A model generated the notes under the pieces. The model was not told the origin of the DNA. It made no database searches and saw nothing but the letters and a program-made list of their open reading frames with translations. Both the position numbers and the translations under genes were made by a program. Shown in pieces: positions 11,835 through 21,900 of a stretch of 64,000 nt of DNA; position 1 is the first letter of the stretch, and each line of letters begins with the position of its first letter. The stretch comes from Escherichia phage BEU50: sequence record OM632671.1. One strand, given 5' to 3'.

Positions 11835-12029
11835 ATGCTAACACGTGAACAGTTTGAAAAAATCATTAAATTAGCACGTGATGTTGAAATAGATTCATAT
11901 CAATTAGCAGTTGAGCATTGTGAAGGATATTCATACGATGGTATAGAATCAGCTAAAAGGGATTTGGATAAATCTAAAGCTAAGTTAGTCCAATATCTTG
12001 AAATGATTAGGTGGAATAATGAAAACTGA
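11835..12029 (+). CDS. hypothetical small protein
   Basis: 64 aa ORF. Confidence 0.45.
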   Translation: MLTREQFEKIIKLARDVEIDSYQLAVEHCEGYSYDGIESAKRDLDKSKAKLVQYLEMIRWNNEN

Positions 12030-12995: not shown

Positions 12996-13224
12996 AGAAT
13001 ATATGGAGACCGCCGAAAAGGCAGTCCGTGAATTAGCAATAGCTTATTATAATGAACACGGTAAATTTCCTGATAGATACAGCGTGCTTAAATCTGCTTT
13101 AACTCGTTCATATAAAAATATGCTATCAGAAGTAAGTGATATTATATACAAACATAAAGAACAAACGGGCCAAAGTCTTGATTACGACGAGACTTTTAAA
13201 CAAGTACTAGGAATTAAGGAATAA
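12982..13224 (+). CDS. hypothetical small protein
   Basis: 80 aa from ATG 12982. Confidence 0.45.
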
Positions 13225-13225
13225 T

Positions 13226-13489
13226 ATGTTTAAAGTATATGGTTATGATAGCAACATCCATAAATGTGTGTATTGCGATAATGCAAAACGTCTTTTGACC
13301 GTGAAGAAACAGCCGTTTGAATTTATCAACATTATGCCGGAAAAAGGTGTTTTTGATGATGAGAAAATCGCTGAGCTTCTGACTAAACTAGGTCGTGATA
13401 CTCAAATCGGCTTAACAATGCCTCAGGTATTTGCTCCTGATGGAAGTCATATTGGTGGATTTGACCAATTGCGGGAATACTTTAAATGA
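13226..13489 (+). CDS. nrdC: glutaredoxin/thioredoxin NrdC
   Basis: 87 aa; CVYC active site. Confidence 0.85.
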   Translation: MFKVYGYDSNIHKCVYCDNAKRLLTVKKQPFEFINIMPEKGVFDDEKIAELLTKLGRDTQIGLTMPQVFAPDGSHIGGFDQLREYFK

Positions 13490-13701
13490 TTCTCGAAGGA
13501 ACTGATTATATCCATGATTACCGCGGAAGCGCGGTATATGTAGGTGATGAAGTTGCAGTTTACTACGGGTATGGAACTTTGATGACAGCCAAGGTTATTC
13601 AAATTAAAAATAATCGTGCTAAACTCGAAGTTTATTATTCTAACGGCGAAAAGTCTATTTCTAAGTGGAAATACGGCGATTGTATGGTCAAACTGGGGTA
13701 A
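13486..13701 (+). CDS. hypothetical small protein
   Basis: 71 aa, ATGA overlap with nrdC stop. Confidence 0.45.
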   Translation: MILEGTDYIHDYRGSAVYVGDEVAVYYGYGTLMTAKVIQIKNNRAKLEVYYSNGEKSISKWKYGDCMVKLG

Positions 13702-13703
13702 AT

Positions 13704-13874
13704 ATGATTTACGATATTAGTGCAGCAAGAGCTCCATCAATGGTTGCTATTCCAGCTGAAGAATTAGATCGTCTTCATAAAATTGAAGAACTTCTGTGGG
13801 AAATTGAATCTGATTTGCCATCAGGATTAGAATCCTGGATTGATTATGAAGAACTTAATAAGCTTCGGGGTTAA
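13704..13874 (+). CDS. hypothetical small protein
   Basis: 56 aa from first ATG of the 13665 ORF. Confidence 0.3.
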   Translation: MIYDISAARAPSMVAIPAEELDRLHKIEELLWEIESDLPSGLESWIDYEELNKLRG

Positions 13875-13996
13875 ACCCTGGTGGGCGGCTAGATGGGAAA
13901 CTGTAGAGCCAGAGCCGGAAGAACCGGTTTACACTGATGAAGAAACAGTATATAATGAACCAACGATAAATGACTTAATTGATATGGAGATGGGAC

Positions 13997-14482
13997 ATGA
14001 TTACAGTAGATAAGTGGTTTAGAATTAATCGTGTTGATACAGGGCTATGTAATTACTGGCCGGAACTTAGTGCAGGTACTGTCTTTAAAGTTCGTGAACT
14101 TGCAAAAGAATGTGAAGATGATATAGAACCTGATACTGGAATTATTGAAATTGAACTTTCTGATGGAAAGATTATTAACATCTATGATAAGCCAATTACG
14201 TATTGGTGCTTGTGGAATACTGAATCCGTTGAAAATGGCGAAATTGAAGAAGTTGTAGAGAGAACTAGCCAAGATGCTCAGAAGCCTAAAGCCGCTTTTC
14301 AAGGTGAACGTATTTCATACGCATTAGCTAAATTAGCTGCACAAGAAAATAACGATGGTTATGAAGGAAATTTAATGCAAGCTGCCGCAGAGTACATTGA
14401 ATGGCTTGAAACTCAAATTTCTTTTTCTGACCAAATGATTCGGCAATATAAGCGATTGCATCAAATGTTTTACAATACTTGA
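13997..14482 (+). CDS. pin: Pin-like protein (protease inhibitor position)
   Basis: 161 aa from ATG 13997 with RBS GGAGA; length and position match T4 pin. Confidence 0.55.
   Translation: MITVDKWFRINRVDTGLCNYWPELSAGTVFKVRELAKECEDDIEPDTGIIEIELSDGKIINIYDKPITYWCLWNTESVENGEIEEVVERTSQDAQKPKAAFQGERISYALAKLAAQENNDGYEGNLMQAAAEYIEWLETQISFSDQMIRQYKRLHQMFYNT
14408..14482 (+). repeat. direct repeat copy A (3-prime end of pin)
   Basis: two sub-blocks (26 nt and 48 nt) recur at 14483-14510 and 14648-14695. Confidence 0.75.
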
Positions 14483-14695
14483 AAAAACTCAAAATTCTTT
14501 TTCTGACAAGGCATTTTAATGAAAACCGAATTGGTTTATACTGAAAAGTTAAATGGCGGTAAGGTTTGGAAACTTTTTATTAAAGGACATTCTACGGACC
14601 CTCATATGACCACTTGCGTAGGAACCTATTCTCGTCCTACTAAAAAGATGATTCGACAGTATAAACGATTGCATCGAATGTTTTACAATACTTAA
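14483..14695 (+). repeat. direct repeat copy B flanking a 58-codon ORF
   Basis: AAAAACTCAAAATTCTTTTTCTGACA at 14483 and ATGATTCG…TACAATACTTAA at 14648. Confidence 0.75.
14519..14695 (+). CDS. hypothetical small protein sharing Pin C-terminal 15 aa
   Basis: 58 aa ending MIRQYKRLHRMFYNT, the same tail as the pin ORF. Confidence 0.4.
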   Translation: MKTELVYTEKLNGGKVWKLFIKGHSTDPHMTTCVGTYSRPTKKMIRQYKRLHRMFYNT

Positions 14696-14704
14696 ATAAT
14701 AAAT

Positions 14705-14735
14705 ACCCTTATCTATTTAAGGTAAGGGTTTTATT
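14705..14735 (+). terminator. hairpin plus T-run before gene 49
   Basis: ACCCTTA … TAAGGGT stem followed by TTTTATT. Confidence 0.5.
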
Positions 14736-15209
14736 ATGTTATTGACTGGCAAATTATACAAAGAAGAAAAACAAAAATTTTATAATGTACAAAACGGTAA
14801 ATGCTTAATTTGCCAACGAGAACTAAATCCTGATGTTCAAGCTAATCACCTTGACCATGACCATGAATTAAATGGACCAAAAGCAGGAAAGGTACGTGGA
14901 TTGCTTTGTAATCTCTGCAATGCTGCAGAAGGTCAAATGAAGCACAAATTTAATCGTTCTGGCTTAAAGGGTCAAGGTGTTGATTATCTTGAATGGTTAG
15001 AAAATTTACTTACTTATTTAAAATCCGATTACACCCAAAATAATATTCACCCTAACTTTGTTGGAGATAAATCAAAGGAATTTTCTCGTTTAGGAAAAGA
15101 GGAAATGATGGCCGAGATGCTTCAAAGTGGATTTGAATATAATGAATCTGACACCAAAACACAATTAATAGCTTCATTTAAGAAGCAGCTTAGAAAGAGT
15201 TTAAAATGA
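14736..15209 (+). CDS. 49: endonuclease VII (Holliday junction resolvase)
   Basis: 157 aa; CLICQ…CNLC zinc site plus HLDHDHE. Confidence 0.85.
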   Translation: MLLTGKLYKEEKQKFYNVQNGKCLICQRELNPDVQANHLDHDHELNGPKAGKVRGLLCNLCNAAEGQMKHKFNRSGLKGQGVDYLEWLENLLTYLKSDYTQNNIHPNFVGDKSKEFSRLGKEEMMAEMLQSGFEYNESDTKTQLIASFKKQLRKSLK

Positions 15210-16027
15210 ATGTAGTATATAAACTATCATTTATTAATAGAATTAATGCTAAAACCCCACCATATTATTACATTGGAAGTAAAACCAATTGCACTTTTGA
15301 TGGAACGAATATTATTGATAAAAATGGTAAATTTTATTATTCGTCTTCGTCATCTTCTGAATTTCAAAAAGCCTTATTGAAAGAAACGCCGAAAGTTGAA
15401 ATATTATATTTTCAATTAGTCGGAGATGAACAAATAACTAGCATTGAAGCTGAATTTCAAAAGAATATAGAAAAAGATGTATGGAATAAAGAGTATTTTA
15501 ATTTAGCATATGCTGATGGCAAATTTACGACATATGGTATTTCTCCTTCTAAAGAAACTAGAGAAAAGCAATCAATAACCATGATTAAAAGAAATCGTAA
15601 TAAAGGCAAAAATCATGGATTTTATGGAAAGCATCATACTAATTTAGCTAGAAAGAAAATATCAGAAGCTTCTAAAAAATACTGGAAAGAAAATCCACAT
15701 CGTGGATTTTCGCATACAAAGGAAGCTAAAATTAAAATTGGAATTTCATCTTCTATCAGGCATAAAGGAAGTGGAAATCCGATGTATGGTGTAAAACCTT
15801 GGAAAACTCCGAGCGCAATTAAATCTGGTACTTGTATATTATGGTTAAAATACGCAGAAATTTTATATGATTATTTAAGTCCAGATTTTAAAAGTAAATC
15901 ATCTATTTTTGCGGATTTAAACTTACCGAAATTTAGAATTGATAATTTCATCAAAAGGTTTAAAATGGGTTGGAACCCATATTTAGACGAAGAATTTCAA
16001 AAGGATAAATTAGAATTATGTCTTTAG
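15206..16027 (+). CDS. GIY-YIG/NUMOD-type homing endonuclease-like protein (seg-like)
   Basis: 273 aa; VVYKLS…YYYIGSK and repeated GxxHT/NPMYG NUMOD-like motifs; inserted between 49 and nrdD. Confidence 0.6.
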   Translation: MNVVYKLSFINRINAKTPPYYYIGSKTNCTFDGTNIIDKNGKFYYSSSSSSEFQKALLKETPKVEILYFQLVGDEQITSIEAEFQKNIEKDVWNKEYFNLAYADGKFTTYGISPSKETREKQSITMIKRNRNKGKNHGFYGKHHTNLARKKISEASKKYWKENPHRGFSHTKEAKIKIGISSSIRHKGSGNPMYGVKPWKTPSAIKSGTCILWLKYAEILYDYLSPDFKSKSSIFADLNLPKFRIDNFIKRFKMGWNPYLDEEFQKDKLELCL

Positions 16028-17016
16028 AAAAAGATGTTTTAAATTTTATTTCAAATAAAGATAAAGAATTAAATACAGAAAACGCCAACAAAGATTCTCG
16101 CGTCTTTCCAACAAAAAGAGATTTAATGGCCGGTATTGTTTCTAAACATATCGCTTGTCGTATTCTTCCAAGTCATATTGTAAATGCCCATAATGTTGGA
16201 TTAATTCATTTTCATGATTTAGATTACAGTATATCATTGCCTTTTACTAATTGCTGTTTAGTAGATTTAAAAGGAATGCTTGAGAACGGGTTTAAGCTCG
16301 GTAATGCACAGATTGAAACTCCTAAATCAATCGGTGTTGCTACTGCAATTATGGCACAAATTACTGCACAGGTTGCTTCTCACCAATATGGCGGAACTAC
16401 ATTTGCTAATGTCGATAAAGTACTTTCTCCTTATGTTAAACGCACCTATGCAAAACATATCGAAGACGCAGAAAAATGGCAAATCGCCGATGCGTTAAAT
16501 TATGCTCAATCTAAAACAGAAAAAGACGTATACGATGCATTCCAAGCTTATGAATATGAAGTAAATACTCTCTTTAGTTCAAACGGACAGACTCCTTTTG
16601 TAACAATTACATTTGGTACAGGAACTGACTGGACTGAACGAATGATTCAGAAAGCAATTCTGAAAAATCGTATTAAAGGTCTTGGTCGTGATGGGATAAC
16701 TCCTATTTTCCCTAAGCTTGTTATGTTTGTTGAAGAAGGTGTTAATCTTTATAAAGACGATCCGAACTATGATATTAAGCAGCTTGCTCTAGAGTGTGCA
16801 AGCAAAAGAATGTATCCTGATATTATTTCAGCTAAGAACAATAAAGCTATCACTGGTTCATCTGTTCCTGTTTCTCCAATGGGTTGCCGTAGTTTCTTGG
16901 GCGTATGGAAAGATTCGACTGGTAATGAAATTCTTGATGGACGTAATAATCTTGGCGTTGTAACACTGAATCTTCCTCGCATCGCGTTAGATTCTTATAT
17001 TGGAACACAGTTCAAT
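16018..17016 (+). pseudogene. nrdD: anaerobic ribonucleotide reductase NrdD, 3-prime truncated (N-terminal ~333 codons only)
   Basis: NrdD-like sequence to …[17 protein letters not shown]; remainder of the ORF to 17103 is reverse complement of gene 37 start; no glycyl-radical C-terminus. Confidence 0.8.
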
Positions 17017-17150
17017 CCTGAGTCATCTTTTGTGAAAATTGTTTTATCTTTTAAGTTTATAGCCAATTCACCTTCGGCTAATACTGAAGCAGCAGGACGT
17101 TGACCTGCAGTTTTGCTTCTTTTAAATTGTATTTGTTTTAAAGTAGCCAT
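16995..17150 (-). pseudogene. 37: long tail fibre distal subunit gene 37, 51-codon N-terminal stub
   Basis: [13 protein letters not shown]…TKDDSG then LNCVPI-stop; gp37-like only to codon 45. Confidence 0.75.
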
Positions 17151-17158
17151 AAGTCCTC

Positions 17159-17809
17159 TTAATAATAGCCGAAATCTTGAACAGAATCCTTAATTACGAT
17201 TTGGTCAAATCGTGGAACGTGTGAAGGTTGAGATGCAGGATTCTGTGAAAAAAGGTTTGGCGCAGTTAAATTTCCTGTCATAGTGTCTCCAGAGCGTAAT
17301 ACCCTAGAGTTTGCATTTGCTGTAACAGTATTTATTGCTCCATCAACATAATCTTTACGAGTAGCATCTGATGCTGCGGAAGGAGTAGATGTAACAGTTA
17401 CAGATGGAGCCGTTACAGCTTTGGTAAATGTTGTCAAACCTTCTGGCGTAATAGTAATTTGTCCAGTAGTGATTTCACTACCTGCTGGTCTAAAACTAAT
17501 ACCGCCAGAAGAGCCACCAACTACAAGAGTATTACCAGTGCCGCCACCAGAACGAATTCGGATGGGGGTTTCATTATTACTTAATTGAAGATAACTATTT
17601 ACACCATAATTAATAGTAACTGGGCCTGTGTAAGTACCACCAGTAGATTTAGAAACGAAATCATTATCAGCTGCCTGTGGTTTATTATATTCTGAATATA
17701 TTTTAAATGATTTGTAGAGTACATCGTCACCGGCTGAATTCAACGGAAAATTTCCTTGATGCCAAATGACAGATCCACCTACAGTTGAACCTCCTTTTAA
17801 ATCAGCCAT
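17159..17809 (-). CDS. 36: long tail fibre subunit gp36
   Basis: 216 aa; N- and C-termini match gp36 as recalled. Confidence 0.9.
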
Positions 17810-17832
17810 AGTATGCCCATTTATTTTAATAT

Positions 17833-17840
17833 TATTTATA
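17833..17840 (-). promoter_or_regulatory. late promoter TATAAATA
   Basis: TATAAATA on minus strand 24 nt upstream of gene 36 ATG. Confidence 0.6.
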
Positions 17841-17842
17841 AA

Positions 17843-17866
17843 GAAAAAAGGAGCCCGGCGGCTCCC
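17843..17866 (-). terminator. hairpin GGAGCC-GCCG-GGCTCC plus T6 (minus strand)
   Basis: between gene 35 stop and gene 36 late promoter. Confidence 0.6.
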
Positions 17867-17871
17867 TCAGT

Positions 17872-18987
17872 TTAAACTTCTCTAAATTCCTGTCCAAACA
17901 CTTTACCAGTTTTAGACGATGCCTGTGTAGGAAGTACCATTATATCTGGAGGTGAAGCCGATTCACAGACATAATTAACGCGAATACCATTGACGCCAAA
18001 TTCGGCAGGTTTTGAAATGCCGCCATTTCTTGATACTTCAGAAAAGCTTAAATTTCTCATACCGCCTTGACCCGCTTGGGCGGTTCTCTGTGTGTATATC
18101 GTAAATCCTACTGCATTTTCAGGAACAACTACATAATCTTCTTTTAATTCCCAAGACCCAGCTTGCCCAGTAAACTCAGCTTGGGTCGAGGAAATATATC
18201 CATTTGATGCATCATAAAAACGAATAGATATATTTGCAGTTCCAAGATCAAGTAAATCAGCATCAGCATATAGTTGTGCTTTAAGATAAAGAACATCACC
18301 AGGAATTAAATTGTAGTCAGAAAGTTTACTTATAGCAGCTGAAGTTGGTAAACGCGCAATTTCATTATTAGTTCCACCAACCGCAGACATAAATTGCTCA
18401 ACGCTTTCGTATGTTCTTTTAGGAAATCCTGTAGCTCCGACGTCTTCTAAACTATCAAATACAACATCTAAAATAGTTTGATAATCATCTGTGCTTTTTC
18501 TATTACTTAGTTTAACATGCTCTAATGCAATAGCTCTTTTAGAAGAAGTATAAAAAGCAGCATATGACACGTCAAATCTTGACAATACTGAATCTGATGG
18601 AAAAACTGAAGTTCCTGCTCCCCTTAACCAAGATACCACTTCAGGAGGAAAATTAACCTTTCCGCTAGTTAATATAGCAACAAGTCTATTGTTTGACAAA
18701 GAATTCATGAAACTGACAAAAGTGGTAGATGTTGTATTGTTTGAAGCAGAAAAAGCATATGACTTACTATCAACTAATGCTCCCGTAGAAGGGTCAAAAA
18801 CTCTTAAATGAAGACCTGCACTAAATGTTTGATTTCCAACGGGATTATCCTGAAATTTAACATATGGTCCCGCAGTAGAAAGCGGGCAAGAACCCGCTAT
18901 GCTTATTTTATATCTTACTGAATTGCTTTCCGATAAAAATGGCGTTTGGACATATCCTTGTCCAAACTCTGCCATAAATTTTTCCAT
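17872..18987 (-). CDS. 35: long tail fibre hinge protein gp35
   Basis: 371 aa; position and length. Confidence 0.85.
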   Translation of the reverse strand: MEKFMAEFGQGYVQTPFLSESNSVRYKISIAGSCPLSTAGPYVKFQDNPVGNQTFSAGLHLRVFDPSTGALVDSKSYAFSASNNTTSTTFVSFMNSLSNNRLVAILTSGKVNFPPEVVSWLRGAGTSVFPSDSVLSRFDVSYAAFYTSSKRAIALEHVKLSNRKSTDDYQTILDVVFDSLEDVGATGFPKRTYESVEQFMSAVGGTNNEIARLPTSAAISKLSDYNLIPGDVLYLKAQLYADADLLDLGTANISIRFYDASNGYISSTQAEFTGQAGSWELKEDYVVVPENAVGFTIYTQRTAQAGQGGMRNLSFSEVSRNGGISKPAEFGVNGIRVNYVCESASPPDIMVLPTQASSKTGKVFGQEFREV

Positions 18988-18995
18988 AATACCTC

Positions 18996-21900
18996 TTATT
19001 CAACCCATTCAAATTTAACAGTTTTATTCACTGGGTCAGGAATAATGCGAACATTACCAATTCGTAAGAAATCACGAATAGTAAGATTACCTATTATTCC
19101 ATTATCAGATGGGATTGCTCCTATATCCGAAGGTTGAGGAGGATTACCTCCATCGAATACCTGAACAAAACTTGACCAAGAGTTTTTGGTTTTCTGCCAT
19201 GTACGTGTCCAGCGAGTGGTACGTGCTTCTGGGGTCGTTGGATAAGTAATCCAATCTTGGTAAAGTGAATCAAGTGTGTTACCAAACTGAGTCAATGTAC
19301 CAGGAGATTTAACTTCTTCACCGCGTTCTAAATATGGAAGTCCAGTCACTTCATTAGTTTTTTCAACCATTTTAAAATAACCCGGGAACTGGTTATAAGT
19401 GGCTGAATCATTAATATCGATTGACCAGAATCCTACAGTATCAGATGTTGGCGCACGGGTATATAAATCAGATGTTTTAACACCTTGAGAACGAATTCTC
19501 GAGTTAACAGTTAAACCGCCTGAACTTATAGTAGCACCTTTTGCAATGATTAAGCTTTCACCAATCGTTACTTGGCCAGATGCATTATTAATAGATAAAG
19601 GACGTAATCCATTAAATCCGCCAGTTTGATCACCCGATGCAGTAAGCATAAAATTCGTTACTGACCCATCATTGCGAACAATGAAACCATAATTTCCGTT
19701 AATAGCACGGAAAGCATTTGCGCTTCGAGAAATAATTTCACCAGTTGCAGTGACTGAATTACCAAATGTTGCTACACCATTTGCATTCAATGTTCCTGAA
19801 GCATTAACATTTATCGGTGTTACTGTACCGTTGATATTAAATGTTATATTTCCAGCTTTATTACGCTGAGAATAAAAATGACTAGACGTTTCATCACTAA
19901 CTTCAAATACGGTAGAACGTGTTGTGTCTGATTCCCCACTAAATTGATTTCCCCACACTCTGACTGTCATCGTTTGAGCCGGGTTTGTTCCAGTTTGAGG
20001 TCCTTTCTCAAAAATCAATCGAGTTGCCGTTCCAGTATTAGAAATAGTTAATGTACTATTTGCTGAAACTGATCCACCGAATGTAGCAGTACTAGATGAT
20101 ACAAGAGGGGCACTCAGATTCGTTTGTTGGGTTAAGGTTAGTGAACCATTAACTGTTTGTGCAATGTCCCTACGAATGAACTGGAGCGAATCTAGACCAT
20201 CTAATAAATTACTATCTACAGCTTTTGCTTTTAATGGCAAATAATTTGCTAATACGCGATTTAATTCATATGGTGATACTGCATAACCATTTTTCTCATA
20301 TGATTCTAATGGTTGTGTTGAACCTACCGTATCATTACCAACGAATGTAATTGAACCAGATGAAGTTTTAACAAACCCTCTTATCAGAGTAGTTGCTGCC
20401 CAAGTTGGTTCACTCTGCACAATCCATTTTAAATTTTTTGGAGATACAGCAGTATTTGCTGATGTTCCAGTCACAGTTTCAGACTGAGTTGCAACTTTAA
20501 TAACACCTTCCTGTGCTTCAGTAGATTTAGTACCTAAAAGCTTTTTAGGAGTTATTAAAACATTATCTAATGTTCCTGCAGCAGCTTCAACTTGTGTAGC
20601 TACACGAAGTGTACCACGCTGTGTCTCATTTGCTTCAAGAATATTAAGTGTATAATGGTCCCAGAGAGTTCCTGATTCAACTAATCCAGATAGAGCAACA
20701 ACAGAAGTACGATCAGTACTATTAAATCTAGTTTTAATTTTTAATGGTGTAGAGATGCGAGTATCGTCGACGCCTGCGTCGAATTCAACTTGCGTAGCAA
20801 TTTCAGCTATACCACTTAAACTTTCAGTTGCTCTACGGTCATTTAAAGTTTTAGGAGTGACTGCACGAGTATAGTCAGTTCCTGTGTTAACTTCACTTTG
20901 CGTAGCAATTTCAATTAAACCAATTCTTCCATCAGTTGATGTCTTTTTATGTAACGTTTCTGGCGTTACAACCGCATTTGCCCATCCTTCTTGGCTTTGT
21001 CCAGCAATTACTTCACTTTCAACTGCTAAAATTACTGCGCCTTGTTGCGTTGGAGTAGCTTTATACTGATCCAAAGCTTTAGGTGAAACAACTAAATTAT
21101 TAGTGTTTTTATTATAAACATTCGTACCATTTAATTCACGGCTAGAAGCTGGAGTAGCTCCTGCAGTAGATACATAAGTTACAATACCAGATAATGATTC
21201 AGAACCTTGGCGAGCTTGAAGCTTTTTAGGAGTGATGATTGTAGTATCATCAGTACCTGTATTAGTTTCCTGCTGCGTAGCAATTTCAGCGACACCTCTA
21301 CGAGTTTCTGTAGCAGTTCTTTCATTCAGCTTTTTAGGAGTGATGATAAGGTCATCTGCAAAAGAGAATGTGGTGTTCTGATTCACTTGAGCAGTAGTTG
21401 CTATTCTTGCAATACCTCTGCGAGTTTCTGTAGCAGTACGATTAGCTAACGTTTCTGGAGTAATTGCTAATTCTTTTTGTGGAGAATTTTCTAAATCAGC
21501 ATTTGCTTGAGCTTGCGTAGCTAAAGCAATTACGCCTAATCTTGCTCTAGTAGAAGCATTTAAAGAGTCTACTCTTTCTACAGTTGGAACGTTTTGCTGT
21601 ACAACCCAGCATTTTCCATCAGAATCTTCTATATAAGCAAGTTGTAAAACTGGAACATAATTAGTTTCACCGTTAAAAACTAATTCTTGAACTGTTACCC
21701 ATTCAGCTTCAGGCGGATATTCTGAACGTTTTGGGAATTGCAGCAATTGAACTGAGGAAGCAATTTTATCTTCACCTGCAGCTTTGATTTTAACTGTTTG
21801 TCCTTTTCTCATGTAATTCATGGAAATTTTAACAGTATCACCAACAGAAATATCAGTCGGAAGCTGAAGTTCAATTGTTTGGGTTGTTCCATTATTCGCG

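What the first reader, a model, noticed from the sequence alone, without database searches (positions are those of the whole stretch)
14408..14695. Duplicated 3-prime end of pin flanks an inserted 58-codon ORF
The last ~75 bp of the pin ORF recur 75-215 bp downstream as two blocks with a few substitutions. The intervening small ORF therefore ends with the same 15 residues as Pin (MIRQYKRLH[Q/R]MFYNT). This is the footprint of a cassette inserted by recombination through short homology, or of a shared C-terminal tail with function, for example a protease-targeting motif.
Basis: seen in the sequence. Interest (0 to 1): 0.5.

Follow-up and report, generated by a model that had tools for sequence, protein, structure and literature searches.

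The report
Two pin alleles stacked in tandem
In this T4-like phage the end of the Lon-inhibitor gene pin is repeated because two natural versions of the pin–gene 49 interval were joined head to tail, and comparison shows that the last 15 residues of the classic T4 PinA protein were captured from the small neighbouring gene; it is a tidy but ordinary case of phage genome reshuffling.

Summary
Block A (14409-14431) recurs at 14485-14507 (22/23). Block B (14435-14482) recurs at 14648-14695 (43/48). Both Pin and the 58-codon ORF end in MIRQYKRLH[Q/R]MFYNT.

The small ORF is a conserved gene (Pfam DUF7279) lying between pin and gene 49 in five Tevenvirinae genera. The tail is its own predicted C-terminal helix. 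Native Pin is 148 aa and ends ...FSDRAF, with its stop overlapping the ORF start (TAATG).

T4-type Pin (161 aa) arose by a 137-nt in-frame deletion that fused pin codon 146 to the last 15 codons of DUF7279.

The window (RB32/RB33 type) carries that chimeric pin, then a 36-nt relic of a native pin 3' end (reads KTQNSFSDKAF*), then an intact DUF7279 gene about 98% identical to that of phage vB_Eco_F25. The join lies in an A-run within a shared CTTGAAA heptamer.

Junction-specific searches give about 252 fused, 113 stacked, 71 ancestral and 69 fully deleted alleles in public phage genomes.

Tail substitutions are 3 synonymous/0 non-synonymous in the ORF and 0/4 in Pin, so there is no sign that the tail is conserved for a function in Pin. 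DUF7279 function remains unknown.

The parts
13997..14482 (+). pin, chimeric T4-type allele (161 aa): PinA/Inhibitor_I24 core plus captured 15-residue tail
   Evidence: Pfam PF10465, E 1.7e-47, covers aa 4-141 only. Residues 146-161 match phrog_3272 (the small-ORF family) at positions 43-58. The pin core is closer to a-type alleles (16-17 differences to L010 and T4; 16-27 over all five a-types) than to b-type alleles (25-44).
14405..14411 (+). CTTGAAA heptamer inside pin, first copy of the short homology at the novel joint
   Evidence: Sequence read directly. The same heptamer recurs at 14478-14484, spanning the pin stop codon.
14409..14431 (+). Block A: pin codons ...TQISFSD, reference copy of the 23-nt repeat
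   Evidence: the repeat finder family D3.
14435..14482 (+). Block B: captured tail (MIRQYKRLHQMFYNT + TGA) fused in frame to pin codon 146
   Evidence: Alignment A1. Fused alleles (T4 and this window's pin) equal a b-type allele minus 137 nt (GCATTTTA...AAAAAG). All fused pins seen share CAA (Q) where DUF7279 tails have CGA (R).
14478..14487 (+). Novel joint B|A': second CTTGAAA heptamer plus a 6-A run
   Evidence: The 46-nt query across this joint finds 113 phage records, all covering at least 80% of it. a-type alleles read CTTGAAAATAAT here and b-type alleles read CTTGAAACTCAAA.
14484..14519 (+). Relic 3' end of a native short pin (contains block A' at 14485-14507); non-coding here, carries the ribosome-binding region of the small ORF
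   Evidence: Translates as KTQNSFSDKAF*, which is the native Pin C-terminus. It is +1 relative to the live pin frame. It differs by one substitution from the pin end of phage vB_Eco_F25 (ETQNSFSDRAF*).
14519..14695 (+). 58-codon gene, Pfam DUF7279 / phrog_3272; function unknown
   Evidence: PF23945, E 3e-17, 62.7 bits against a cutoff of 24.5, aa 7-56. phrog_3272, E 3.4e-34. pN/pS is 0.06-0.55 across 45 pairwise comparisons between homologues. The AF2 model is beta-beta-beta-alpha with mean pLDDT 82. Homologues sit at this position in Tequatro-, Mosig-, Dhaka- and Gaprivervirus and in the same gene neighbourhood in Gelderlandvirus.
14648..14695 (+). Block B': native tail of DUF7279 (MIRQYKRLHRMFYNT + TAA), its predicted C-terminal helix
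   Evidence: the repeat finder family D1. Helix 42-56 in the AF2 model. Differences among ORF tails are 3 synonymous and 0 non-synonymous.
14705..14729 (+). Conserved hairpin just upstream of gene 49 (right-hand anchor shared by all alleles)
   Evidence: Terminator-like site with a 10-bp stem. Invariant in all aligned alleles. Annotated as a terminator in JB75 and G50.
14736..15209 (+). Gene 49, endonuclease VII (downstream boundary of the variable interval)
   Evidence: Pfam PF02945 and PF09124.

Best explanation
The repeat is the scar of two alleles of the pin-gene 49 interval stacked in tandem.

Step 1, ancestral 'b' state (shown by comparison): pin is 148 aa and ends ...SFSDRAF. Its stop overlaps the start (TAATG) of a small conserved gene, DUF7279. 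That gene's last 15 residues form its own predicted C-terminal helix.

Step 2, 'a' state as in T4 (shown by alignment): a 137-nt deletion removed pin's last two codons and DUF7279 codons 1-43. This fused pin codon 146 in frame to the last 15 DUF7279 codons and gave the 161-aa PinA.

Step 3, 'd' state, this window and RB32/RB33 (the joint is shown; the process is inferred): one illegitimate join connected the end of an a-type pin to a point 36 nt before the end of a native pin in an F25-like b-type genome. The join lies just past the a-type stop, in an A-run within a shared CTTGAAA heptamer. The result is chimeric pin, then a dead pin 3' relic, then intact DUF7279.

Predicted consequences (inferred): the phage makes both tailed Pin and DUF7279. 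The 23-nt and 48-nt direct repeats can recombine back to the b or a allele.

The tail in Pin is most likely a passenger rather than a selected motif.
For: (1) The tail belongs to DUF7279. PF23945 covers ORF aa 7-56 at E 3e-17, while PF10465 covers Pin aa 4-141 only. The Pin tail hits phrog_3272 positions 43-58. The AF2 model places the tail as helix 42-56 of a beta3-alpha fold.

(2) Short Pin is ancestral. Pins from many T4-like genera, including ones with no small ORF, end FSD[RKE]AF or similar. DUF7279 lies between pin and gene 49 in Mosig-, Dhaka- and Gaprivervirus and in the same neighbourhood in Gelderlandvirus.

(3) The T4 allele equals the b allele minus 137 nt, with everything downstream identical.

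(4) The relic 14484-14519 translates as KTQNSFSDKAF*. The relic plus ORF is about 98% identical to b-type phage vB_Eco_F25 and shares the synonymous tail codons CGA CAG TAT AAA. The window relic and the RB33 relic each differ from F25 by one different substitution.

(5) The d-type pin core is nearer to a-types (16-17 differences to L010 and T4) than to b-types (25-44). All fused pins seen share the derived CAA (Q) codon.

(6) Junction-specific searches give 365 records with the fused junction, 113 with the B|A' joint, 184 with the A|ORF start, and 69 with the full deletion.

(7) The interval loses and fuses this gene repeatedly. A second, independent Pin::tail fusion (...LERR+FHRDFYNVY) arose through ACGTTT microhomology in a Mosigvirus-like contig. 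Clean deletions occur in IME339 and FP43, and L019 carries a frameshifted copy.

(8) Tail substitutions are 3 syn/0 nonsyn in ORF copies against 0 syn/4 nonsyn in Pin copies (Fisher p = 0.03).
Against: The joint has six A's. A simple crossover within CTTGAAA would give three, so the exact breakpoint, and whether slippage followed, is uncertain.

A one-step a x b join cannot be told apart from a 73-76-bp tandem duplication in an a-type genome followed by homologous exchange with a b-type genome.

Gene 49 just downstream gives no clear a-versus-b signal, as expected in highly mosaic phages.

The substitution counts rest on about a dozen loci plus protein clusters and are small.

All 161-aa Pins seen keep the full tail with no truncation, so some benefit of the tail cannot be excluded.
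Confidence: 0.82

Rival explanations
1. A long, tailed pin is original, and the 58-codon ORF is a foreign cassette that inserted by recombination through short homology, duplicating the pin 3' end as target or flank.
For: The ORF is present or absent among close relatives, and repeats flank it.
Against: The tail lies outside the PinA Pfam domain and inside the DUF7279 profile. Pins of other genera end FSDRAF-like without the tail. The ORF occupies the same position in four other genera. b-type alleles carry the ORF with no duplication at all. The ORF encodes no nuclease or recombinase domain.
Confidence: 0.04
2. The shared tail is a functional module, for example a Lon-binding or protease-targeting helix, kept by selection in both proteins. 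On this reading the stacked arrangement exists because both tailed proteins are useful.
For: The tail is highly conserved within DUF7279 (RPTKKMIRQYKRxHRxFY). Two independent in-frame captures by Pin exist. Every 161-aa Pin seen keeps the full-length tail. DUF7279 is adjacent to pin across genera, and two paralogues flank pin in Mosigviruses. The AF2 model makes the tail a continuation of Pin's C-terminal helix.
Against: About 140 of 505 Tequatrovirus records, and all distant genera sampled, have tail-less Pin. Pin-tail changes are all non-synonymous and hit residues that are invariant in DUF7279 (H to N, R to Q). An in-frame outcome is expected by chance in one of three deletions. No similarity to any solved structure or known motif was found.
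Confidence: 0.1
3. In-situ origin. A b-type genome tandemly duplicated the 213-bp unit (A-ORF-B), the first ORF copy was then deleted to give the d-type, and T4-type alleles descend from d by B x B' recombination. On this reading d precedes a.
For: The d-type can in principle generate both a and b by recombination between its direct repeats. RB33 has identical A and A' copies, which suggests ongoing exchange between the copies.
Against: It needs more steps. a-type alleles share with b-types the exact downstream sequence ACTTGAAAATAATAAATACC and a TGA stop, whereas d-type ORF copies end TAA. a-types are more than twice as common and more diverse in the junction codons (CGAATG, CAAATG, CAAAAG).
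Confidence: 0.1
4. Chance similarity or assembly artefact.
For: None.
Against: Shuffles never approach the observed identity. The joint is present in 113 independently sequenced genomes, including RB32 and RB33.
Confidence: 0.01

Closest known systems
T4 PinA (gene pin), inhibitor of E. coli Lon protease (Pfam Inhibitor_I24, PF10465; UniProt P07068 as cited in PMC8835725)
   Same: The window's pin is a 161-aa T4-type allele. Its first 146 residues are 95% identical to the T4 protein, and it carries the same fused tail at the same junction.
   Different: It is followed by a relic pin end and an intact DUF7279 gene, both absent from T4. The comparison shows that the T4 reference protein itself is a chimera, whereas 148-aa tail-less Pin is the ancestral form.
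RB32 / RB33-type pin-49 interval (DQ904452, KM607001), small ORF annotated 'hypothetical protein'
   Same: The architecture and joint are identical.
   Different: There are a few substitutions: relic DKAF here against DRTF there, and Pin ...TQISFSDQM here against ...TQNSFSDQM there. The window also has a homing-endonuclease-like ORF after gene 49 that RB33 lacks.
Modular shuffling of small ORFs in T4-type hyperplastic regions via PeSL cassettes (Arbiol et al. 2010, PMC2839356; Comeau et al. 2014, PMC4122927)
   Same: Small non-essential ORFs are gained, lost and replaced between closely related T4-type phages by recombination at short repeated sequences.
   Different: The repeats here are coding sequence of pin and DUF7279, not promoter-plus-stem-loop cassettes. 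No sigma70-like site and no inverted repeat lies within them. The events are microhomology deletions and one illegitimate join, not exchange between dispersed regulatory cassettes.
Microhomology-mediated deletion and gene fusion in phage T4 (classical rII deletion studies; from my own knowledge, not checked here)
   Same: Deletion end-points fall at short direct repeats: ACGTTT in the Mosigvirus fusion and (TTTTA)AAT in the IME339-type deletion.
   Different: I could identify no microhomology at the T4-type 137-nt deletion junction itself.

Membership tests
Pfam DUF7279 (PF23945) / phrog_3272, for the 58-codon ORF | Score above the curated gathering cutoff, with near full-length profile coverage | tested here: met
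   62.7 bits against a cutoff of 24.5, E 3e-17, protein aa 7-56 on profile 1-53/53. phrog_3272 E 3.4e-34, positions 1-58/59.
Pfam DUF7279 (PF23945), for the 58-codon ORF | The conserved C-terminal basic segment (RPTKK-MIRQYKR-HR-FY) is part of the domain | tested here: met
   R39, P40, T41, K42, I45, R46, K49, R50, H52, R53 and F55 are invariant in alignment A2. The segment is predicted as helix 42-56.
PinA peptidase inhibitor (Pfam Inhibitor_I24, PF10465), for pin | Score above the gathering cutoff | tested here: met
   161.2 bits against a cutoff of 27, E 1.7e-47.
PinA peptidase inhibitor (Pfam Inhibitor_I24, PF10465), for pin | The 15-residue tail belongs to the family domain | tested here: not met
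   The profile match ends at residue 141 of 161. 148-aa and shorter orthologues lack the tail.
PinA peptidase inhibitor, for pin | Binds and inhibits Lon protease | not testable with these tools
   Known for T4 PinA from the literature (PMC8835725 and references therein). Not tested for this allele, nor for 148-aa alleles.
PeSL mobile regulatory cassette (Arbiol et al. 2010) | The repeated element consists of a strong sigma70-like early promoter plus a stem-loop terminator | tested here: not met
   No promoter-like site lies between 14007 and 14947 on either strand, and the only stem-loop there is the gene-49 hairpin at 14705-14729, outside the repeats. There are no inverted repeats in 13900-15300.
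Free-standing homing-endonuclease cassette insertion | The inserted ORF encodes a nuclease domain (GIY-YIG, HNH, LAGLIDADG and similar) | tested here: not met
   The ORF matches only DUF7279. The neighbouring NUMOD3 ORF at 15206-16027 occurs in only 5 of the 113 or more d-type genomes, so it is not linked to the arrangement.
Lon degron / protease-targeting tail | The peptide is sufficient for Lon binding or degradation | not testable with these tools
   No sequence or fold match to any solved structure. Only the substitution pattern argues against constraint in Pin.
Unequal/illegitimate recombination product (tandem stacking of alleles) | A novel joint flanked by short shared sequence, with each side traceable to a distinct extant allele | tested here: met
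   CTTGAAA at 14405-14411 and 14478-14484. The left side is nearest a-type alleles. The right side is about 98% identical to b-type vB_Eco_F25.

The most novel reading that the evidence does not exclude
DUF7279 and Pin are functional partners. They are adjacent, and often translationally coupled, across genera. On this reading the basic C-terminal helix of DUF7279 is a protease- or partner-binding module. Its capture by Pin, which happened independently at least twice, would change how PinA engages Lon, for example by adding a pseudo-degron or an oligomerisation helix. The textbook T4 PinA would then be an evolved two-module inhibitor, and the stacked allele would give the phage both activities.
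Probability: 0.08. Interest if true: 0.55.

Novelty: new member of a known kind. Interest (0 to 1): 0.3.

Why it matters
The arrangement itself is already in more than 100 public genomes and reflects ordinary T4-type genome plasticity.

The useful by-product concerns the reference Lon inhibitor. T4 PinA, used in Lon biochemistry and structural work, carries a 15-residue C-terminal helix that is foreign to the Pin family. It was taken from the neighbouring gene by a deletion. Natural 148-aa Pins end at ...FSDRAF.

This gives a clear construct-design hint and a simple test of whether the tail matters for Lon inhibition.

It also documents one locus with four or more segregating alleles (ancestral, fused, deleted, stacked) and identifiable donors. 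That makes it a convenient natural system for studying microhomology-mediated deletion and repeat-mediated reversion in T4-like phages.

Finally, it shows that DUF7279 is a real, selected but repeatedly lost small gene of unknown function.

Tried and rejected
- **Function of DUF7279, not resolved.** A sequence search of the PDB found nothing. Foldseek against the PDB gave nothing below E 0.27. Foldseek against the viral library gave only a family member from phage S16. The afdb50 library was unavailable.
- **Exhaustive HMMER search.** It returned four family members (P0011, P0013, P0014 and one more) plus four long repetitive proteins. The best domain hits of those long proteins were unrelated or below cutoff, so I treated them as compositional matches.
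- **Shine-Dalgarno idea, rejected.** I considered that the relic had evolved a better Shine-Dalgarno sequence after losing coupling to pin. The AGG/AAG purines are already present in the b-type donor-like phage F25, and the two d-type variants are single substitutions from it.
- **Link to the homing-endonuclease-like ORF at 15206-16027, rejected.** Only 5 records share that ORF.
- **PeSL cassettes, rejected.** No promoter or stem-loop lies in the repeats.
- **The 37-nt similarity between pin (14390-14426) and gene 49 (14982-15018).** It scores 26/37, only marginally above the best shuffle (25/37). I treated it as probably chance.
- **Rfam.** No hit in 13000-21000.
- **Literature.** Searches for DUF7279 and for pin/T4-like terms found no description of this polymorphism. 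The 1988 pin paper (PMC211243) is not held.
- **A script error.** One row set (the 'window' rows) picked the wrong ORF, at 12019, and should be ignored. L001 and L009 carry the same ORF58 protein as the window and stand in for it.

Full report
**Context.** The window is a Tequatrovirus (T4-like) genome segment. Around the finding lie nrdC (13226-13489), three small ORFs, and pin (ATG at 13997, stop at 14482; 161 aa). Then come a 58-codon ORF (14519-14695), gene 49/endonuclease VII (14736-15209), a NUMOD3 homing-endonuclease-like ORF (15206-16027) and nrdD. Megablast of 13900-15300 finds 731 phage records, the best at 97% identity.

**Observation.** The repeat finder gives two direct-repeat families. 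One is 14409-14431 vs 14485-14507 (23 nt, 22 identical). The other is 14435-14486 vs 14648-14699 (52 nt, 88%). Over the 48 nt that include the stop codons, 43 are identical. In 30 shuffles of the region the best 47-mer match was at most 30/47, against 42 observed. The best 23-mer match was at most 19/23, against 22 observed. Pin ends ...SFSDQMIRQYKRLHQMFYNT*, and the ORF ends ...PTKKMIRQYKRLHRMFYNT*. The joint between the first copy and the second is found in 113 independent genomes, including RB32 and RB33, so it is not an artefact.

**Which gene owns the tail.**
- The ORF is a full-length member of Pfam DUF7279 (PF23945: E 3e-17, 62.7 bits against a cutoff of 24.5, residues 7-56). It is also a full-length member of phrog_3272 (E 3.4e-34).
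- The PinA profile (PF10465) matches Pin residues 4-141 only. Pin residues 146-161 instead hit phrog_3272 at positions 43-58.
- An AlphaFold2 model of the ORF (10-sequence alignment, mean pLDDT 82) has three beta-strands followed by a helix at residues 42-56. That helix is the tail.
- In the alignment of homologues, R39, P40, T41, K42, I45, R46, K49, R50, H52, R53 and F55 are invariant.
- pN/pS between homologues is 0.06-0.55, so this is a real gene under purifying selection.
- Homologues lie directly upstream of gene 49 in Mosigvirus (RB69 ORF087c), Dhakavirus (JS98, MN04) and Gaprivervirus (VR7). One lies in the same neighbourhood in Gelderlandvirus (S16).

**What native Pin looks like.** I examined 44 IMG/VR loci fetched through gene 49, together with Pin protein clusters. 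Pins from many genera end ...LE.QL.FSD[RKE]AF, or similar, and lack the tail. This includes genera that have no small ORF at all. Within Tequatrovirus, 148-aa Pins ending SFSDRAF* are common. Their stop overlaps the ORF start as TAATG. The short Pin followed by DUF7279 is therefore the ancestral arrangement, which I call 'b'.

**The alleles.** Alignment of the interval shows four alleles.
- **b (GRNsp7, PEC04, G50, F25):** pin148 followed by the ORF.
- **a (T4 and many others):** identical to b except for a 137-nt deletion (GCATTTTA...AAAAAG). The deletion joins pin codon 146 in frame to the last 15 ORF codons and gives the 161-aa PinA.
- **c (IME339, ime09):** pin148 with the whole ORF removed, at a TTTTA/AAT microhomology.
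- **d (this window, JB75, RB32/33):** an a-type pin, then a second partial pin end, then the complete ORF.

Junction-specific 41-46-nt queries can only score if the junction is contiguous. They give 365 records with the fused junction (a+d), 113 with the B|A' joint (d), and 184 with pin-end|ORF-start (b+d). The full-deletion junction (c) occurs in 69 records. This works out to about 252 a, 113 d, 71 b and 69 c, in total about the 506 records that match the interval at 90% identity or more.

**Anatomy of the window allele.**
- After the pin stop (TGA, 14480-14482), the 36 nt at 14484-14519 translate as KTQNSFSDKAF*. This is a native Pin C-terminus, in a frame +1 to the live pin. Its TAA overlaps the ORF's ATG exactly as in b alleles.
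- Phage vB_Eco_F25 is a b allele whose pin end (ETQNSFSDRAF*) and ORF are about 98% identical to window 14484-14735. It also shares the synonymous tail codons CGA CAG TAT AAA, which distinguish d-type ORFs from other b alleles.
- The window relic (AAG GCA) and the RB33/JB75 relic (AGG ACA) each differ from F25 (AGG GCA) by one different substitution. This is as expected for a dead sequence derived from an F25-like donor.
- On the left, the window's pin core differs at 16-17 sites from the a-type alleles L010 and T4, but at 25-44 sites from b alleles.
- All fused pins seen share CAA (Q) where ORF tails have CGA (R).
- The joint reads ACTTGAAAAAACTCAAAA. a alleles read ACTTGAAAATAAT and b alleles read GGCTTGAAACTCAAA. 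The breakpoint therefore lies in the A-run of a shared CTTGAAA heptamer (14405-14411 and 14478-14484).

The simplest history is b to a by deletion, followed by one illegitimate a x b join that produced d. A tandem duplication within an a allele, followed by homologous exchange with a b allele, would give the same product and cannot be excluded. The alternative that d preceded a is less parsimonious. a and b share the downstream sequence ACTTGAAAATAATAAATACC and a TGA stop, whereas d-type ORFs end TAA.

**Is the tail functional in Pin?**
- Among ORF tails in Tequatrovirus, the three variable sites are all synonymous (CGG/CGA, CAA/CAG, AAG/AAA).
- Among Pin tails, the four substitutions are all non-synonymous (M to K, R to Q, H to N, R to Q). 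They include residues that are invariant in DUF7279.
- Fisher p = 0.03. The numbers are small.
- The pattern fits purifying selection on the ORF and relaxed, or different, constraint in Pin.
- The AF2 model of Pin161 (mean pLDDT 69) extends the native C-terminal helix through the tail at moderate confidence.
- No PinA or DUF7279 structure is in the PDB.
- The literature I could read shows that T4 PinA binds and inhibits Lon, but says nothing about its C-terminus (PMC8835725).
- I therefore regard the tail in Pin as a probable passenger. It remains possible that it contributes to function. Every 161-aa Pin seen keeps it intact, and a second, independent capture exists (next paragraph).

**Recurrence.**
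- A Mosigvirus-like metagenomic contig (L055, protein P0046) has Pin fused to the last nine residues of its own DUF7279 neighbour (...LERR+FHRDFYNVY). The fusion arose by a deletion between two ACGTTT repeats.
- FP43 has a clean deletion of the ORF.
- L019 has a frameshifted copy.
- The interval is thus a hot spot where a dispensable small gene is repeatedly lost, sometimes leaving its tail on pin.

**Comparison with known systems.**
- The closest general phenomenon is modular shuffling of small ORFs in T4-type hyperplastic regions (PMC2839356). The repeats here are not PeSL promoter/stem-loop cassettes: no promoter-like site or inverted repeat lies in them.
- Nothing links the arrangement to the nearby homing-endonuclease-like ORF, which only five records share.
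- The allele itself is already in public genomes, with the ORF annotated 'hypothetical protein'.
- I found no paper describing the polymorphism or the chimeric origin of the T4 PinA C-terminus. The held library is incomplete.

**Verdict.** It is wrong in polarity, and it is unsupported as to a functional shared tail. The finding is an ordinary product of illegitimate recombination in a T4-like phage. Its modestly interesting corollary is that textbook T4 PinA carries a helix borrowed from its neighbour. Interest 0.3; new member of a known kind.

Noticed in passing
window 15206-16027 (+): A 273-aa ORF with a NUMOD3 motif and homing-endonuclease PHROG hits (phrog_7504) sits between gene 49 and nrdD. 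Its start overlaps the stop of gene 49. Only the 5 best of 731 matching phage records extend through it; the other records listed stop at window 15209.
   Followed up: partly
window 16018-17103 (+): The nrdD-like ORF ends after 361 aa. In JB75 the nrdD large subunit is likewise annotated as a short fragment followed by a homing endonuclease. Rfam found no intron family in 13000-21000 at gathering threshold.
   Followed up: partly
window 14390-14426 vs 14982-15018: A 37-nt direct similarity (26/37) links the pin 3' region (EYIEWLETQ) and gene 49 (DYLEWLENL). It is only just above the best of 30 shuffles (25/37), so it is probably chance.
   Followed up: partly
L019 695-865, L055 1029-1199, protein P0045: Mosigvirus-like phages carry a second DUF7279 paralogue (...RPTKRQLRKAKRxHRNFY..) immediately upstream of pin, so pin is flanked by two paralogues. 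In P0045 the upstream copy is called as one 191-aa protein with pin.
   Followed up: partly
L011, L014, L016 (about 720-1470); L053 748-1106; L058 456-1077: In Dhakavirus and Gaprivervirus, pin is split. A 57-aa ORF matches only the Pin C-terminal region (ending FSDEAF, with its stop overlapping the next start). In some phages a 100-aa ORF weakly similar to the Pin N-terminal half lies between that ORF and DUF7279, which is a permuted order.
   Followed up: no
L019 1342-1461 and upstream: The DUF7279 copy downstream of pin in this Mosigvirus-like contig is frameshifted (an extra T in a T-run). Only a 39-codon ORF carrying the tail remains.
   Followed up: no
window 14705-14729 (+): A hairpin that is nearly invariant (one substitution, in RB69) starts just after TAATAAATA and ends 6 nt before the gene 49 ATG. 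It is conserved from Tequatrovirus to Mosigvirus. It probably corresponds to the regulatory stem-loop described for T4 gene 49; that identification is from memory and was not checked.
   Followed up: no
window 13928-13956 (+): A near-consensus sigma70-like promoter (TTTACA, 17-nt spacer, TATAAT; 11 of 12 matches) lies inside the 49.1-like ORF about 40 nt upstream of pin. It is a candidate promoter for pin and the DUF7279 gene.
   Followed up: no
protein P0038 (142 aa): A metagenomic protein joins Pin residues 1-83 to a Peptidase_S24-like (PF00717) segment. It may be a chimeric contig or another rearrangement at pin.
   Followed up: no
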